Below, piece by piece: positions 30,220-53,637 of a DNA stretch of 64,000 nucleotides. The translations under genes and the position numbers were made by a program. Position 1 is the first letter of the stretch. Each line of letters opens with the position of its first letter. The notes beneath the pieces are model-generated. The model saw only the letters and a list, made by a program, of their open reading frames with translations. It searched no databases and was not told the origin of the DNA. This stretch comes from an uncultured Chitinophaga sp. (GTDB taxonomy: Bacteria; Bacteroidota; Bacteroidia; Chitinophagales; Chitinophagaceae): contig CAYTGN010000015.1 of NCBI GenBank assembly GCA_964437415.1, positions 1,890-65,889 on the forward strand, read 5' to 3'.

Positions 30220-30290
30220 TGAGCTATGGTGTAACGGTAGCACTACAGATTTTGGTTCTGTCTGTCTAGGTTCGAATCCTAGTAGCTCAA
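30220..30290 (+). tRNA. tRNA-Gln (anticodon UUG), CCA not encoded
   Basis: Hand-folded cloverleaf: acceptor TGAGCTA/TAGCTCA (U1:A72 as in tRNA-Gln), D-arm GTGT-AACGGTA-GCAC, anticodon arm ACAGA-TTTTGGT-TCTGT, 4-nt variable loop, T-arm CTAGG-TTCGAAT-CCTAG, discriminator A. Confidence 0.9.
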
Positions 30291-30294
30291 CGAG

Positions 30295-30319
30295 AGACCT
30301 TATGACAAGGTCTTTTTTT
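30295..30319 (+). terminator. hairpin plus T7 tract between the tRNA-Gln and the GIY-YIG ORF
   Basis: AGACCTT-ATGAC-AAGGTCT followed by TTTTTT. The T-run directly abuts the ATG at 30320. Confidence 0.65.
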
Positions 30320-30565
30320 ATGGTGCATGTTTATGTCATTGAAAGCTTACTGGATAAAACCAGGTACACCGGAATGGCTCTTGATCCGCTAAAACGGCTG
30401 GATGAACATAACAACGGGAAAAACAGATTCACTAAGGGGCACAGACCCTGGAAAATTATCTACACAGAAACTCATTCCGATTGGGCATCTGCAAGGCAAC
30501 GGGAAAAATATTTGAAATCTGCTGCAGGAAAAAAGTGGCTTGTAAAAACACTCAACCACGAATAA
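30320..30565 (+). CDS. mini GIY-YIG (URI-domain, YhbQ/COG2827-like) nuclease family protein
   Basis: 81 codons. Motifs: VHVYVIES (GIY-like), RYTGMA (YIG-like), KRLDEHN, and a conserved YTE...E..LK helix. The 134-aa track ORF (30161..) reads through the tRNA, so the internal ATG at 30320 is preferred. Confidence 0.75.
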   Translation: MVHVYVIESLLDKTRYTGMALDPLKRLDEHNNGKNRFTKGHRPWKIIYTETHSDWASARQREKYLKSAAGKKWLVKTLNHE

Positions 30566-30566
30566 A

Positions 30567-30637
30567 AGATTTTGGTTCTGTCTGTACAGGTTCCCTGCCT
30601 GACTGCGTCACGCAGTCAGGGAATCCTGGTAGCTCAA
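30567..30637 (+). pseudogene. displaced partial copy of tRNA-Gln (anticodon stem-loop to discriminator base) with a 27-nt insert in the T-loop
   Basis: 30567-30585 is identical to 30247-30265 (19/19). Outside the insert, 42/45 positions match tRNA positions 30247-30291. No acceptor 5' strand or D-arm is present upstream. Confidence 0.8.
30594..30620. repeat. 27-nt palindromic insert splitting the T-loop (TTC^GAAT) of the partial tRNA copy
   Basis: CCTG + CCTGACTGCG-TCA-CGCAGTCAGG. The 10-bp arms are perfectly complementary. Confidence 0.8.
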
Positions 30638-30643
30638 CAGATT

Positions 30644-51076: not shown

Positions 51077-52126
51077 ATGAAGCTTTCACAATTCCGTTTC
51101 GACCTTCCGTTGAACCTTATTGCCCAAAACCCTGCGAAAAGAAGAGAAGATGCCCGCATGATGGTGGTGCACCGCCACACCGGCCAGATCGAGAACAAAC
51201 ACTTCCGCGACATCCTCGATTATTTTGATGACAAGGATGCTTTTGTGGTCAATAACACCAAAGTGTTTCCTGCCCGCATGTATGGCCGCAAGGAAAAGAC
51301 CGGCGCCAAGATCGAAGTGTTTCTGCTGCGGGAGTTGAACAAACCCAACCGACTCTGGGATGTGATCGTTGATCCCGCAAGAAAGATCCGTGTGGGTAAC
51401 AAACTCTATTTCGGCGAGCAGGAAGACCTGGTAGCAGAAGTGATTGACAACACCACCAGCCGCGGCCGCACCATCCGTTTCTTGTGGGAAGGCAGCGAAG
51501 AAGAGTTTCGTGCCGTGCTGGAAAGGCTTGGTGAAACACCGTTGCCCAAATACATTAAACGCAAACCCGACGAAGAAGACAAGGAACGTTACCAGACAGT
51601 GTATGCGAAGCATGAAGGCGCTGTGGCCGCCCCCACTGCCGGCTTGCATTTCAGCCGTGAGCTGATCAAACGTTTAGAGATAAAAGGTATCCGCTTTGCG
51701 GAAGTTACCCTGCACACAGGTTTGGGCACATTCCGCCCCATTGAGGTGGAAGACCTGAGCAAACATAAAATGGATGCGGAATATTACCGCATTGATGACA
51801 CGGCCTGCAAAATTGTGAACCGTGCCAAGGAGTATGGTCATCGTATCTGTTCTGTTGGCACTACTACGATGAGGGCTTTGGAGTCATCTTTCACCGCACA
51901 AAAATTATTGAAACCATCCGAAGGATGGACCAACATGTTCATCCACCCGCCTTATGAATTCAATATTGCGGATTCGCTGGTAACGAATTTTCATTTACCC
52001 AAAACAAGTTTGCTGATCATGACCTGCGCCTTTGCCGGTTATGAGCTGACGATGGAAGCATACAAAAAAGCCATCAAAGACAAATACCGTTTCTTTAGCT
52101 ATGGCGATGCGTTGCTGATCATCTAA
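51077..52126 (+). CDS. queA: S-adenosylmethionine:tRNA ribosyltransferase-isomerase
   Basis: 349 aa from [20 protein letters not shown], with later [12 protein letters not shown] and [11 protein letters not shown]. The track ORF (50756..) has a spurious 107-aa extension. Confidence 0.9.
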
Positions 52127-52147
52127 AAGCAAAAAGAAAAGTTTATG

Positions 52148-52175
52148 AAAGCCTCACGGAAGTGGGGCTTTTTTG
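52148..52175 (+). terminator. Rho-independent terminator after queA
   Basis: GCCTCAC-GGAA-GTGGGGC (one G-U pair) followed by TTTTTT. Confidence 0.65.
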
Positions 52176-52231
52176 TGGAAAGACTTTTGTAGATTCGTAT
52201 GATAGCGCAAATAAAAGCATTAGTACCATTG

Positions 52232-52240
52232 TAAGACAAC
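52232..52240. repeat. left copy of the direct repeat TAAGACAAC(ATCT) flanking the AT-rich islet
   Basis: It is identical to the 9-mer at 53032-53040, exactly 800 nt away. The 13-mer TAAGACAACATCT reappears downstream, interrupted by TTGTGT plus a CAAC duplication. Confidence 0.6.
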
Positions 52241-52264
52241 ATCTAATTAATCTAAAAATTGCTT

Positions 52265-53029
52265 ATGACAGCAACTACAATTACAGGACAAATACGAAAA
52301 GTTGCATTTGATGTTTTAGAGGAAAAGCCAGAAGGCATGCGTTATTCAGACCTTGGAAGGAAAATTTTGGAAGTCAATCCTTCTTTTAAGCCAAACACAA
52401 TTAGCGGTGCGACATGGGACTTAGACATTCAGTTCCCAGATAAAGTTTATAAACCTGATAGAGGCGTTTTCCGACTATTAAAATTTAAAGAAAATATATC
52501 CACACAACCTGACCAGCGACCAACAACAACTGAAAAGATAACGACAAAGAAAGCGATTAAGGAGGAGGATTTTTATAAACCATTTGCTGACTGGCTTGTA
52601 AATGAACTTGAAGAGTGTACAAACGCTATAGGACTTGGCGGTAATATTTTCCGAGATAAGTGGGGAACTCCTGATGTAGTTGGAGTAAGAGAATCGAAAA
52701 GAAGTGATATTATTCAATTCCCAACAGAAATAGTGTCTGGCGAAATTAAAATTGATTCGAATGGCCTAATCACAGCATTTGGACAGGCCTGTGCTTACAA
52801 AATATTTTCACATAAATCATACATTGTAGTACCTAATGATTCACAGATTGAAGACATAACAAGATTAGATACACTTTGTAGGCAATTTGGGATAGGTCTT
52901 ATTTTGTTTGACTCAACAAATATTGAAGACCCCAACTTTGAAATCCGTGCAAGAGCAGTGAAACATGAGCCTGATATGTTTTTTGTAAATAAAAATCTTA
53001 AAATTATTGAAGACAAGCTTTTTAGGTGA
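52265..53029 (+). CDS. winged-helix plus PD-(D/E)xK (RecB/Mrr-like) nuclease-fold protein, function unknown
   Basis: 254 aa from the ATG (a TTG lies at 52259). The N-terminal ~75 aa look like an Mrr_N-type wHTH (RYSDLGRKILE...RGVFRLLKF). The C-terminal half has E(EEDFYKPFADWL), GTPDVVGV, GEIKID (ExK) and GQACAY (QxxxY). Confidence 0.6.
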   Translation: MTATTITGQIRKVAFDVLEEKPEGMRYSDLGRKILEVNPSFKPNTISGATWDLDIQFPDKVYKPDRGVFRLLKFKENISTQPDQRPTTTEKITTKKAIKEEDFYKPFADWLVNELEECTNAIGLGGNIFRDKWGTPDVVGVRESKRSDIIQFPTEIVSGEIKIDSNGLITAFGQACAYKIFSHKSYIVVPNDSQIEDITRLDTLCRQFGIGLILFDSTNIEDPNFEIRARAVKHEPDMFFVNKNLKIIEDKLFR

Positions 53030-53031
53030 CC

Positions 53032-53054
53032 TAAGACAACTTGTGTCAACATCT
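53032..53054. repeat. right copy of the direct repeat (TAAGACAAC ... CAACATCT)
   Basis: It starts 3 nt after the stop codon of the islet ORF. See the left copy. Confidence 0.6.
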
Positions 53055-53166
53055 TTCGCCTTCGTTGGTGTTTCTCCCTAACAATGAAAATACACGGTTT
53101 CCCAAACCTTTCTTAACTATCCCCTAACAGGAAAAAAGTCGTAAATTACAGAAGGAGGATAAGGTT

Positions 53167-53637
53167 ATGAAAATGATACTACTGGCAATATGTTTTGTTT
53201 CCTTAGGCGCTGGCTTGTCTGCGCAGTCTTACAGGGGTTCCGTTGCGGCCAAAAGCTACGAGGAAAAACTCAATGACATGTATTGCACAGGCATGTTCCG
53301 CTCAACGCATGGCACTATACTGGATGTAGCCAATAATATCAGCAGCCGCAGTTTTCTCAATATCCTCGACTGGCTGCAGGGTCGTGTGGCCGGTTTGCAG
53401 ATCTACAGTTCCGGCACGGGTAACCCGCTGCCCGTGATCCGTGGAATGGTGCCGGGCATTTTTGTGGATGAAATGCCCATGCCGATCAATTTTCTGAATT
53501 TTCTCAACGTAAATGATATTGCCATAGTGAAAGTGATCAAACAACCTTTCTATGGCGGCTTCAACGGTGGTGGCGGTGCTATTGCCATTTATACGCTGGG
53601 TAGCGAAGATGAAGAAGAAGCGGTGGAAACGAAATGA
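53167..53637 (+). CDS. small secreted protein resembling an isolated TonB-dependent-receptor Plug segment
   Basis: 156 aa with a signal peptide. LDWLQGRVAGLQI, VIRG and FVDEMPM...LNVNDIAIVKVIK resemble Plug-domain blocks. No barrel follows. Confidence 0.55.
   Translation: MKMILLAICFVSLGAGLSAQSYRGSVAAKSYEEKLNDMYCTGMFRSTHGTILDVANNISSRSFLNILDWLQGRVAGLQIYSSGTGNPLPVIRGMVPGIFVDEMPMPINFLNFLNVNDIAIVKVIKQPFYGGFNGGGGAIAIYTLGSEDEEEAVETK

What the first reader, a model, noticed from the sequence alone, without database searches (positions are those of the whole stretch)
52127..53166. AT-rich 800-bp single-gene islet after queA: a wHTH plus PD-(D/E)xK/QxxxY protein flanked by TAAGACAAC direct repeats
Directly after the queA terminator the composition drops. 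My hand counts of three 60-nt lines inside the ORF give 33-43% G+C, against 58% for one queA line.

The only gene is a 254-aa protein. Its N-terminus looks like an Mrr_N-type winged helix. Its C-terminal half carries a nuclease-like motif series: E (in FYKPFADWL), PD (GTPDVVGV), ExK (GEIKID) and QxxxY (GQACAY).

The ORF is bracketed by the 9-mer TAAGACAAC at 52232 and 53032, exactly 800 nt apart. The left copy continues as ATCT. The right copy has the same 13-mer interrupted by TTGTGT plus a CAAC duplication. This resembles a target-site duplication or att remnant.

No recombinase, methyltransferase or partner gene is present. Candidate interpretations are a solitary type IV (modification-dependent) restriction or defence nuclease, or a self-mobilising nuclease cassette. 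It has the same one-nuclease-ORF-between-direct-repeats layout as the tRNA-Gln/GIY-YIG locus.
Basis: partly seen in the sequence, partly recalled or inferred. Interest (0 to 1): 0.65.

Follow-up and report, generated by a model that had tools for sequence, protein, structure and literature searches.

The report
Stranded integron cassette encoding a nuclease
The AT-rich islet after queA is a single integron gene cassette that landed outside any integron and lost its recombination site; it carries an uncharacterised, highly conserved DNA-binding nuclease, probably a defence gene, that integrons have spread across bacteria and archaea.

Summary
A 254-aa ORF (52265-53029) sits in a 33-40% G+C stretch between queA and the next gene, and TAAGACAAC occurs at 52232 and 53032. 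It is a real insertion. None of 80 queA relatives carries the gene, and six relatives with the same gene order have a 137-203 nt spacer where the window has 1040 nt.

The protein is a Rok-like winged helix joined to a PD-(D/E)xK nuclease (AlphaFold pLDDT 94). No Pfam, NCBIfam, PADLOC or PHROGs family matches it.

The new result is that this gene family is an integron gene cassette. In relatives the ORF is preceded by G|TTAG... and followed by a textbook attC site (GCCTAAC...GTTAGGC, 58-135 nt, folding as a hairpin). It sits in attC arrays, and in two loci beside an integron integrase.

The window copy keeps only decayed R' and R'' boxes, has no foldable attC, and has no integrase within 64 kb. 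It is a stranded, domesticated cassette.

The 9-mer repeat is not a target-site duplication. It lies just inside the cassette ends and is no rarer than chance.

The function is inferred, not shown: a partner-less defence nuclease, possibly type IV-like, under very strong purifying selection (dN/dS 0.02-0.05).

The parts
51077..52126 (+). queA (349 aa from MKLSQF...), the host gene on the left of the insertion
   Evidence: ORF. 80 metagenomic relatives share 82-96% amino-acid identity.
52150..52175 (+). queA terminator-like hairpin (AGCCTCAC-GGAA-GTGGGGCT followed by a T run); host sequence
   Evidence: Read directly. An equivalent hairpin plus T run follows queA in relatives L097, L098, L099 and L165. 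The simple terminator scan did not list it.
52219..52232 (+). Decayed left cassette end: ATTAGTACC-ATTGT. It corresponds to G|TTAGCACCAATTGT, the 3' half of the R' core site plus its extension, in intact relatives.
   Evidence: Alignment A5 and flank listing. Exact GTTAGCACCA sits upstream on + and downstream on - in L012, L015, L016, L018 and L019. Homology between independent insertions starts exactly here.
52232..52240 (+). It lies in the cassette leader, just inside the R' remnant.
   Evidence: Relatives carry AAGACGAC, AGAACGAC or AAAGCAAC at the same place.
52265..53029 (+). Cassette ORF, 254 aa. Residues ~6-71 form a Rok-like winged helix, ~78-98 a low-confidence linker, and ~100-254 a PD-(D/E)xK nuclease domain (E100, D137, E160, K162, Q174, Y178).
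   Evidence: dN/dS is 0.02-0.05.
53032..53040 (+). Right copy of TAAGACAAC. It overlaps the start of the R'' remnant.
53036..53050 (+). Decayed R'' (inverse core) box: ACAACTTGTGTCAAC. It corresponds to ACAACTGGTGCTAAC, which opens the attC site in intact relatives. The rest of the attC is missing.
   Evidence: This is the only match in the 64-kb window to ACAACTGGTGCTAAC at up to 3 mismatches, and it lies 7 nt after the stop codon. Alignment A6. Window 53036-53130 does not fold (z = +0.2), whereas relatives' attC sites give z = -2.4 to -5.6.
53051..53166 (+). Host leader of the downstream gene (CTTAACTATCCCCTAACAGG...GGAGG), conserved in relatives that lack the insertion
   Evidence: L097, L098, L099, L101, L165 and L171 carry CTTAACTATCCGCTAACAGC...GGAGG directly after the queA terminator.
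53167..53637 (+). Host gene on the right (156 aa, signal-peptide-like N-terminus)
   Evidence: Homologues (42-56% identity) lie 137-203 nt after queA in six relatives.

Best explanation
The islet (about 52219-53050, roughly 830 bp) is one integron gene cassette that has been stranded in the chromosome.

How it moves (shown in relatives). In its mobile form the cassette is a circle made of a short leader, one ORF and an attC recombination site. An integron integrase (IntI) inserts it by crossing over between the G and the TT of the GTTRRRY core. The integrated cassette therefore begins with TTAG... and ends with attC (R'' ...YTAAC, hairpin arms, R' G|TT).

What happened here (inferred). This copy was inserted between the queA terminator and the leader of the next gene, outside any integron. 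The likely route is IntI acting at a non-canonical genomic site. Afterwards it lost the hairpin part of its attC and accumulated substitutions in the R' and R'' boxes, so it can no longer be excised.

What the ORF is (fold shown, function inferred). The ORF has stayed intact under very strong purifying selection. It encodes a winged-helix DNA-binding domain fused to a PD-(D/E)xK nuclease with an intact catalytic set. The gene travels alone, without a methyltransferase, immunity gene or other partner, through many phyla and into archaea. The most likely function is therefore a self-contained nuclease that spares host DNA and cuts foreign DNA, such as a modification-dependent (type IV-like) or otherwise foreign-DNA-specific defence enzyme.

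Shown: the insertion, the fold, the cassette nature of the family, and the decay of the window's att boxes. Inferred: the route of insertion and the biological function.
For: Insertion:
- None of 80 queA relatives (82-96% amino-acid identity) carries the gene.
- Six relatives with queA followed by the same downstream gene have a 137-203 nt spacer, against 1040 nt here. Their spacers share the host terminator and leader.

Discrete unit:
- Homology between copies in unrelated contexts ends sharply: -37/+47 (L015/L016), -38/+36 (L089/L063), -47/+26 (L017/L019) and -74/+67 (L037/L038) relative to the ORF.

Cassette ends:
- A left end GTTAG/GTTAT/GTTAA... is complementary to a ...CTAAC box just after the stop codon in 19 of 80 loci, against 5% in shuffled controls. 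The inner bases co-vary by clade: GCACCA, AACTC, GGCGAA, ACAT, TCCGGC.

attC sites:
- Sites of 58-135 nt, such as GCCTAAC...GTTAGGC, lie directly after the stop codon in L015, L018, L019, L027, L037, L039, L047, L055, L062 and L072. By eye they also occur in L016, L038, L044, L073 and L088.
- Their bottom strands fold as an R stem, an unpaired spacer and a long L stem, with z = -2.4 to -5.6.

Integron context:
- attC arrays occur in L037, L038, L047, L055 and L062.
- Integron integrases score above the TIGR02249 cut-off of 265 bits in L037 (489 bits) and L047 (349 bits). The L047 integrase is divergent and 180 nt upstream of the gene.

Window remnants:
- ATTAGTACC-ATTGT at -46 and ACAACTTGTGTCAAC at +7 lie at the same positions as the intact boxes.
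- There is no foldable attC and no IntI.

Protein:
- The AlphaFold model has pLDDT 93.9.
- Foldseek hits to the nuclease domain are all PD-(D/E)xK: AF2093, FokI, YaeQ, SfsA, MUS81, XisH and phage MmcB-like proteins down to E = 1e-7.
- The N-terminus matches the Rok winged helix.
- The catalytic residues are conserved and dN/dS is 0.02-0.05.

Solitary and widespread:
- There is no recurrent neighbour.
- The family has 3419 clusters at 90% identity and 923 at 50%.
- It occurs in many bacterial phyla and in Methanophagales and Methanosarcinales.

Literature:
- IntI inserts cassettes at genomic GWT sites, isolated cassettes (SALINs) are common, and attC hairpins are easily deleted (10.1101/2022.09.11.507474).
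- Cassettes are enriched in defence functions, including restriction endonucleases, and integrons occur in archaea (PMC10661359).
Against: - The window copy itself has no attC and no integrase within 64 kb. Its cassette origin rests on homology of its decayed end boxes to intact relatives.
- The base before TTAG is A, not G. The exact junctions cannot be resolved, because the closest empty-site relatives are too divergent in the spacer.
- My attC scan is crude. Its genome-wide hit rate (0.081 per kb) is barely above the control rate (0.064 per kb). Only the positional enrichment, the textbook core sequences and the IntI neighbours carry weight. No covariance model was built.
- Only about 5 of 83 loci are in evident arrays.
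- In the Bacteroidota clade I saw only solitary copies and no IntI, so how they move there is not shown.
- On function: there are no hits to PADLOC or any known type IV family, no phage or defence-island association was tested, and the closest viral structural matches are annotated as DNA-repair (MmcB-like) nucleases.
Confidence: 0.72

Rival explanations
1. It is an autonomous mini-transposon. The wHTH-PD-(D/E)xK protein would be its own transposase, binding the GTTAG...CTAAC terminal inverted repeats, with TAAGACAAC as a target-site duplication.
For: Inverted repeats of 10-15 nt bracket the ORF in many loci and co-vary by clade. The unit has sharp boundaries. Many metagenomic contigs break within about 1 kb of the gene.
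Against: The 'TIRs' are the R' and R'' boxes of attC sites. The right one opens a 58-135 nt hairpin that ends in a second GTTRRRY. Integron integrases and attC arrays flank relatives. The 9-mer lies inside the conserved ends and is similar at different insertion sites, so it is not a duplication of the target. Copy number is about one per genome: 252 matching stretches in the GTDB scan, of which two listed loci (L057, L088) come from one MAG and two short contigs (L071, L077) from another.
Confidence: 0.04
2. The cassette origin is the same, but the protein is a DNA-repair or structure-specific nuclease (MmcB-like, Hjc-, RecU- or NucS-like role), not a defence enzyme.
For: The best viral structural matches are annotated as MmcB-like DNA repair proteins, with E = 1e-7 to 1e-4. 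MUS81, SfsA and XisH are among the PDB hits. The protein is not toxic despite lacking any partner. Conservation is extreme.
Against: Distribution is sporadic and driven by horizontal transfer. The gene's G+C is below its flanks in most loci. It is carried in integron cassettes, which are enriched for accessory and defence traits. The fused winged helix of the Rok / HARE-HTH kind is typical of enzymes that read foreign or modified DNA; this last point is from established knowledge and was not tested here.
Confidence: 0.18
3. The cassette origin is the same, but the nuclease is a selfish stabiliser. It would be addiction-like, or would act on attC hairpins or empty sites, and the sub-terminal direct repeats would be its binding sites.
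For: Sub-terminal direct repeats recur just inside both cassette ends: window TAAGACAAC twice, L017 TAGAACGACA twice. Toxin-antitoxin-type selfish cassettes are common in integrons.
Against: There is no antitoxin or immunity partner. The stranded copy, with its attC lost, is still under strong purifying selection. That argues for a benefit independent of cassette mobility. The repeat is statistically weak.
Confidence: 0.06

Closest known systems
Integron gene cassettes, including isolated cassettes outside integrons (SALIN; IntI-mediated insertion at genomic attG / GWT sites; Loot et al., bioRxiv 10.1101/2022.09.11.507474)
   Same: It has one ORF with a short leader. The left boundary is at G|TTRRRY. 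Relatives carry an attC with R''/R' cores and a folded hairpin, sit in arrays and lie beside IntI. Solitary copies occur in unrelated chromosomal contexts. Loss of the attC hairpin after insertion is anticipated in that paper.
   Different: The window copy lacks the attC that defines a SALIN, so it is a further decayed, domesticated stage. The junction base is A rather than G. No IntI was seen in any Bacteroidota-clade locus within the flanks held.
Type IV (modification-dependent) restriction enzymes of the Mrr kind (N-terminal winged helix plus C-terminal PD-(D/E)xK)
   Same: It shares the two-domain plan of a winged helix followed by a PD-(D/E)xK nuclease. It is solitary with no methyltransferase, is horizontally mobile, and has low G+C.
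   Different: There is no detectable sequence relationship to Mrr_N, Mrr_cat or any PADLOC type IV model. The winged helix is nearest to Rok, and the nuclease domain is nearest to MmcB-like proteins. Activity and substrate are unknown.
MmcB-like PD-(D/E)xK proteins (phage and bacterial 'DNA repair protein MmcB')
   Same: They are the closest structural matches for the nuclease domain: Foldseek against BFVD gives E = 1e-7 to 1e-4 and target-normalised TM 0.5-0.7 over about 150 residues.
   Different: Sequence identity is only 13-20%. The MmcB-like proteins listed are 138-229 residues and align over about 140-190 columns, matching the nuclease domain only. There is no Pfam hit to that family.
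Phage-defence cassettes of mobile and chromosomal integrons (bioRxiv 10.1101/2024.07.02.601719; 10.64898/2026.03.17.712381)
   Same: It is a compact, single-cassette accessory gene of unknown function carried by integrons, with a nuclease fold.
   Different: I found no evidence that this family is among those tested. It comes mostly from environmental MAGs (Bacteroidota, Ignavibacteriota, Planctomycetota, archaea), not from Vibrio or clinical integrons.

Membership tests
Integron gene cassette (the gene family) | The ORF is followed by an attC site: an imperfect palindrome of about 55-140 nt bounded by R'' (RYYYAAC) and R' (GTTRRRY), which folds as a single-stranded hairpin. | tested here: met
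   Relatives L015, L018, L019, L027, L037, L039, L047, L055, L062 and L072 meet it, and by eye so do L016, L038, L044, L073 and L088. Folding z-scores are -2.4 to -5.6. The detection was heuristic, not IntegronFinder.
Integron gene cassette (the gene family) | It occurs in cassette arrays next to an integron integrase. | tested here: met
   L037 has IntI at 489 bits (TIGR02249 cut-off 265) plus five attC sites with same-strand ORFs between them. L047 has IntI at 349 bits, divergent and 180 nt upstream.
Integron gene cassette (the gene family) | The left boundary lies at G|TTRRRY, and the leader is complementary to the cassette's own R'' box. | tested here: met
   19 of 80 loci meet it, against 5% of shuffled controls. 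Homology between independent copies begins at GTTAG.
Integron gene cassette (the gene family) | IntI excises and integrates the cassette. | not testable with these tools
   This needs a recombination assay.
Isolated cassette / SALIN (the window copy) | A CDS with its own attC site, and no integrase or other att site nearby. | tested here: not met
   There is no IntI in the 64 kb. However, there is also no attC: only a 15-nt R''-like box with 12 of 15 matches, and the downstream DNA does not fold. It is best described as a decayed former cassette.
Isolated cassette / SALIN (the window copy) | It is an insertion relative to an empty site in relatives. | tested here: met
   the spacer is 137-203 nt in six syntenic relatives and 1040 nt here.
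Isolated cassette / SALIN (the window copy) | The junction lies at a GWT (attG) target. | tested here: inconclusive
   The left junction reads A|TTAG. Relatives with the empty site are too divergent to place the crossover.
PD-(D/E)xK nuclease superfamily | An alpha-beta-beta-beta-alpha-beta core carrying D...(D/E)xK on beta2 and beta3. | tested here: met
   The model has pLDDT 93.9, with H100-113, E120-123, E138-142, E155-161, H165-178 and E184-190. D137, E160 and K162 are conserved. Foldseek hits are PD-(D/E)xK proteins.
PD-(D/E)xK nuclease superfamily | Metal-dependent phosphodiester cleavage. | not testable with these tools
   This needs a biochemical assay.
Type IV restriction enzyme (Mrr-like) | Sequence membership in a known type IV family (Mrr_N, Mrr_cat, or PADLOC mREase models). 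| tested here: not met
   Pfam gives only weak WH_Rok and HARE-HTH hits (E = 0.15-0.22). PADLOC and NCBIfam give nothing.
Type IV restriction enzyme (Mrr-like) | No cognate methyltransferase, and cleavage only of modified DNA. | tested here: inconclusive
   No conserved neighbour of any kind was found. Dependence on modification cannot be tested here.
Autonomous transposon / insertion sequence | A target-site duplication that differs between insertion sites, plus a self-encoded transposase. | tested here: not met
   The repeat lies inside the conserved ends and is similar across insertion sites. The ends are attC boxes, and IntI is supplied in trans.
Free-standing homing endonuclease | Recurrent insertion at one homologous target. 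| tested here: not met
   Each of the 83 loci has a different neighbourhood.

The most novel reading that the evidence does not exclude
This unnamed wHTH-PD-(D/E)xK family may be a new single-protein defence system against phages or mobile elements. The family has no Pfam, NCBIfam or PADLOC model, comprises thousands of sequence clusters, and keeps 55-60% identity between bacteria and archaea. It could be a nuclease that reads modified or otherwise foreign DNA through a Rok-like winged helix. Integron cassettes would be its main vehicle, including across domains. Stranded copies such as this one would show that hosts keep it after it can no longer move.
Probability: 0.35. Interest if true: 0.7.

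Novelty: new member of a known kind. Interest (0 to 1): 0.45.

Why it matters
The finding explains an apparently orphan AT-rich islet by a known mechanism, an integron cassette inserted outside an integron. It also gives a natural example of the end state predicted for such insertions: the attC is lost while the gene is kept under selection.

More useful still, it flags a very widespread, unannotated and extremely constrained nuclease family that integrons move between phyla and between bacteria and archaea. Cassette cargo is now being mined for compact defence systems, and this family is a concrete candidate that can be tested with one gene.

Tried and rejected
1. Family and sequence searches. 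Pfam, NCBIfam, PADLOC, PHROGs and a PDB sequence search with the single protein gave nothing significant.

2. AlphaFold with a shallow alignment (26 sequences, all at least 73% identical) gave pLDDT 53 and no usable nuclease domain. A 68-sequence diverse alignment fixed this.

3. I first read the GTTAG...CTAAC inverted repeats as transposon TIRs. I then read the about 66-nt palindromes flanking L037, L038, L076 and L082 as REP elements with a RAYT-like arrangement. Both readings were dropped once the units proved to be attC sites with GTTRRRY/RYYYAAC cores and an integron integrase was found next door.

4. A first attC heuristic was unspecific: 0.48 hits per kb against 0.26 per kb in controls. 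A stricter version still gave 0.081 against 0.064. Only position-specific results are used in the argument.

5. An arms-only attC alignment gave no RNAalifold consensus. The outer three R''/R' pairs pair in only about half of the sites. No covariance model was built.

6. An exact-sequence look-up of the 156-aa downstream protein found nothing.

7. A literature search for AF2093, the top PDB structural hit, returned only unrelated papers.

8. The phage database had no homologue. The plasmid database had a single homologue at 38% identity on an unannotated Novosphingobium megaplasmid.

9. Rfam found nothing above threshold in the flanks. The sigma-70 promoter scan was at chance level.
Full report
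**Observation.**
- The window has a 254-aa ORF at 52265-53029 on the + strand.
- G+C in 300-nt windows falls to 0.33-0.40 between about 52000 and 53100, against 0.44-0.53 on either side. The gene is 35.8% G+C and its flanks 46.8%.
- TAAGACAAC is present at 52232 and 53032, 800 nt apart. The same 1.1-kb AT-rich stretch contains three other exact repeats of 9-10 nt. The repeat is real but not by itself beyond chance.

**It is an insertion.**
- I scanned metagenome contigs with the QueA protein and obtained 80 loci with 82-96% identical QueA. None encodes the 254-aa protein.
- In six of them (L097, L098, L099, L101, L165, L171) queA is followed by a homologue of the window's 156-aa downstream gene. 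The spacer there is 137-203 nt. In the window it is 1040 nt.
- Those short spacers contain the same parts as the window's outer flanks: a terminator hairpin after queA and a CTTAACTATCC(G/C)CTAACAG...GGAGG leader before the next gene.
- About 830-850 nt is therefore extra in the window.
- The relatives are too divergent in the spacer to fix the junction to the base.

**The protein.**
- Single-sequence searches of Pfam, NCBIfam, PADLOC, PHROGs and PDB gave nothing significant.
- The family is nevertheless very large. There are 3419 clusters at 90% identity, with the best 120 being 74-94% identical and about 250 aa long. There are 923 clusters at 50% identity, 264 of them with E below 1e-30.
- With a 68-sequence diverse alignment, AlphaFold gave pLDDT 93.9.
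- Residues 6-71 form a winged helix. A family profile matches the DNA-binding domain of Rok (PDB 5zuz, E = 1e-4), Pfam WH_Rok hits 5 of 68 members, and Foldseek finds Rok and Fur/Zur winged helices.
- Residues 100-254 have the alpha-beta-beta-beta-alpha-beta core of PD-(D/E)xK nucleases. PDB matches are AF2093, FokI, YaeQ, BsmI, SfsA, MUS81 and XisH. The best matches in the viral library are MmcB-like proteins, with E = 1e-7 to 1e-4.
- E100, D137, E160, K162, Q174 and Y178 are invariant or nearly so across the diverse alignment.
- Pairwise dN/dS between copies is 0.02-0.05, even where synonymous sites are near saturation. For the window against L009, dS is 1.45 and dN 0.033.

**Distribution and context.**
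- A scan of one genome per GTDB species found 252 matching stretches.
- Hosts include Bacteroidota, Ignavibacteriota, Planctomycetota, Acidobacteriota, Nitrospirota, several proteobacterial classes, candidate-phyla-radiation bacteria, and Methanophagales and Methanosarcinales archaea. Bacterial and archaeal copies are still 55-60% identical to the window protein.
- In 83 distinct loci no neighbouring gene family recurs in more than 5. Contexts of the closest relatives are all different.
- The gene's G+C is below that of its flanks in most loci.
- No homologue occurs in the phage collection. Only one distant homologue occurs in the plasmid collection.

**The ends.**
- I aligned the flanks of the closest Bacteroidota copies. 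A conserved non-coding sequence appears about 45 nt before the start, GTTAGCACCAATTGT. Its reverse complement appears just after the stop, ACAACTGGTGCTAAC.
- Exact GTTAGCACCA flanks the gene in inverted orientation in L012, L015, L016, L018 and L019.
- Across all clades, a left end beginning GTTAG, GTTAT or GTTAA is complementary to a ...CTAAC box after the stop in 19 of 80 loci, against 5% in shuffled controls. The inner bases differ by clade.
- Homology between copies in unrelated contexts stops sharply 35-75 nt before the start and 20-67 nt after the stop.
- I first took these ends for transposon TIRs, then for REP-like palindromes. Both readings were wrong.

**Integron cassette.**
- The motifs are the integron core sites, R' = GTTRRRY and R'' = RYYYAAC.
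- After the stop codon, relatives carry complete attC sites. One example is GCCTAAC-N-GTTATGC in L039 (91 nt). Others are GTCTAAC...GTTAGCC in L062 (99 nt), TGCTAAC...GTTACCA in L027 (58 nt) and TTCTAAC...GTTAGCA in L037 (70 nt).
- Folded as single-stranded DNA, their bottom strands form an R stem, a short unpaired spacer and a long L stem, with z-scores of -2.4 to -5.6.
- L037 (a Propionivibrio MAG) is a complete integron. It has an integrase scoring 489 bits on TIGR02249 (cut-off 265), followed by same-strand ORFs separated by attC sites at 2585, 2953, 3925, 4758 and 6673. The nuclease gene lies between the third and fourth.
- In L047 (a Phycisphaera MAG) an integron integrase (349 bits) lies divergently 180 nt upstream, so the nuclease gene is the first cassette.
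- L038, L055 and L062 show attC arrays.
- Caveat: my attC detection is heuristic, and genome-wide it is hardly better than its control (0.081 against 0.064 hits per kb). The argument rests on three things: the positions of the sites directly after the stop codon, their textbook core sequences, and the integrases.

**The window copy.**
- At the places where intact relatives have G|TTAGCACCAATTGT and ACAACTGGTGCTAAC, the window has ATTAGTACC-ATTGT (52219-52232) and ACAACTTGTGTCAAC (53036-53050).
- The latter is the only match in 64 kb to the right-end consensus at up to 3 mismatches, and it lies 7 nt after the stop.
- Beyond it the DNA resumes host-like leader sequence and does not fold (z = +0.2 and +1.1).
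- No integron integrase is encoded anywhere in the window.
- The copy is therefore a former cassette that has lost the attC hairpin and can no longer be excised. The closest nucleotide relative, L009 (83% nt, 93% aa), lies in a different context and shows the same kind of decay.
- This matches published work. IntI inserts cassettes at genomic GWT sites, isolated cassettes (SALINs) are frequent, and attC hairpins are easily deleted, which leads to domestication (bioRxiv 10.1101/2022.09.11.507474).
- The window copy fails the formal SALIN definition because it has no attC.

**The 9-mer repeat.**
- TAAGACAAC lies immediately inside the left R' remnant. On the right it overlaps the start of the R'' remnant.
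- Relatives have similar purine-rich sub-terminal sequences at both places. L017 even has an exact 10-mer, TAGAACGACA, at both.
- It is therefore part of the cassette, not a duplication of the target. Its role, if any, is unexplained.

**Function (inferred).**
- The protein has an intact PD-(D/E)xK catalytic set and a fused winged helix.
- It has no methyltransferase or other partner, shows very strong purifying selection even in stranded copies, and is carried by integrons. Cassette pools are enriched for defence functions, including restriction endonucleases (PMC10661359).
- Together these point to a self-contained nuclease that discriminates foreign from host DNA. A type IV-like, modification-dependent enzyme is the simplest model.
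- There is no sequence membership in any known type IV family.
- A repair or structure-specific role, suggested by the MmcB-like structural neighbours, is a serious rival.

**Verdict.**
- The islet is real and is explained by a known mechanism.
- What is new is the identification of its cargo as a very widespread, unannotated cassette-borne nuclease family.
- Novelty: new member of a known kind. Interest: moderate.

Noticed in passing
window 30220-30640: tRNA-Gln (30220-30291) is followed by a small GIY-YIG ORF (about 30322-30565). After that comes a second copy of the tRNA's 3' half (AGATTTTGGTTCTGTCTGT..., about 30567-30640) in which the T-arm is replaced by a long hairpin. The locus is bracketed by a tRNA-half duplication and has no GTTRRRY or attC features, so it is a different kind of element from the queA islet.
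   Followed up: partly
L063:4001-5241, L071 and L077 (whole contigs): The 'Candidatus Argoarchaeum ethanivorans' MAG and the MAG of its syntrophic partner, Desulfobacteraceae Eth-SRB1, carry 98-99% identical copies of the nuclease gene plus 500 nt of identical downstream flank. The partner's copies are on two 1267-nt contigs. This is either a very recent archaeon-bacterium transfer or mis-binning.
   Followed up: no
L007:6765-7349 and L008:841-1425: In a Kapabacteria genome a 194-aa ORF with no Pfam hit starts at the stop codon of the nuclease gene. It may be a lineage-specific second gene replacing the attC.
   Followed up: no
L017:3940-4790; window 52232-52240 and 53032-53040: Sub-terminal direct repeats recur in this cassette clade just inside R' and just before R'': TAGAACGACA twice in L017 and TAAGACAAC twice in the window. 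They are not explained by the integron recombination model. They could be a binding site for the encoded winged helix, or chance.
   Followed up: partly
L003-L006 and L034 (Ignavibacteria), 6977-9186 in L003: Immediately downstream of the nuclease gene lie a 451-aa protein with no Pfam hit and a Dam-type methyltransferase (MethyltransfD12). They may form a separate restriction-modification pair next to the cassette.
   Followed up: no
window 53076-53090 and 53122-53136: CCCTAACA(A/G)... is duplicated 46 nt apart in the leader of the downstream 156-aa gene. The second copy is conserved in relatives as CCGCTAACAGC and looks like a host promoter or leader element. It coincidentally contains CTAAC.
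   Followed up: partly
L076:600-1480 and L082:3930-4830: In two high-G+C loci the gene is flanked on both sides by a 34-42-nt palindromic element (CTCCCCTCTCCCG...CGGGAGAGGGG) in inverted orientation. It is unlike the attC sites elsewhere. It may be a host REP-type repeat or a divergent attC.
   Followed up: no
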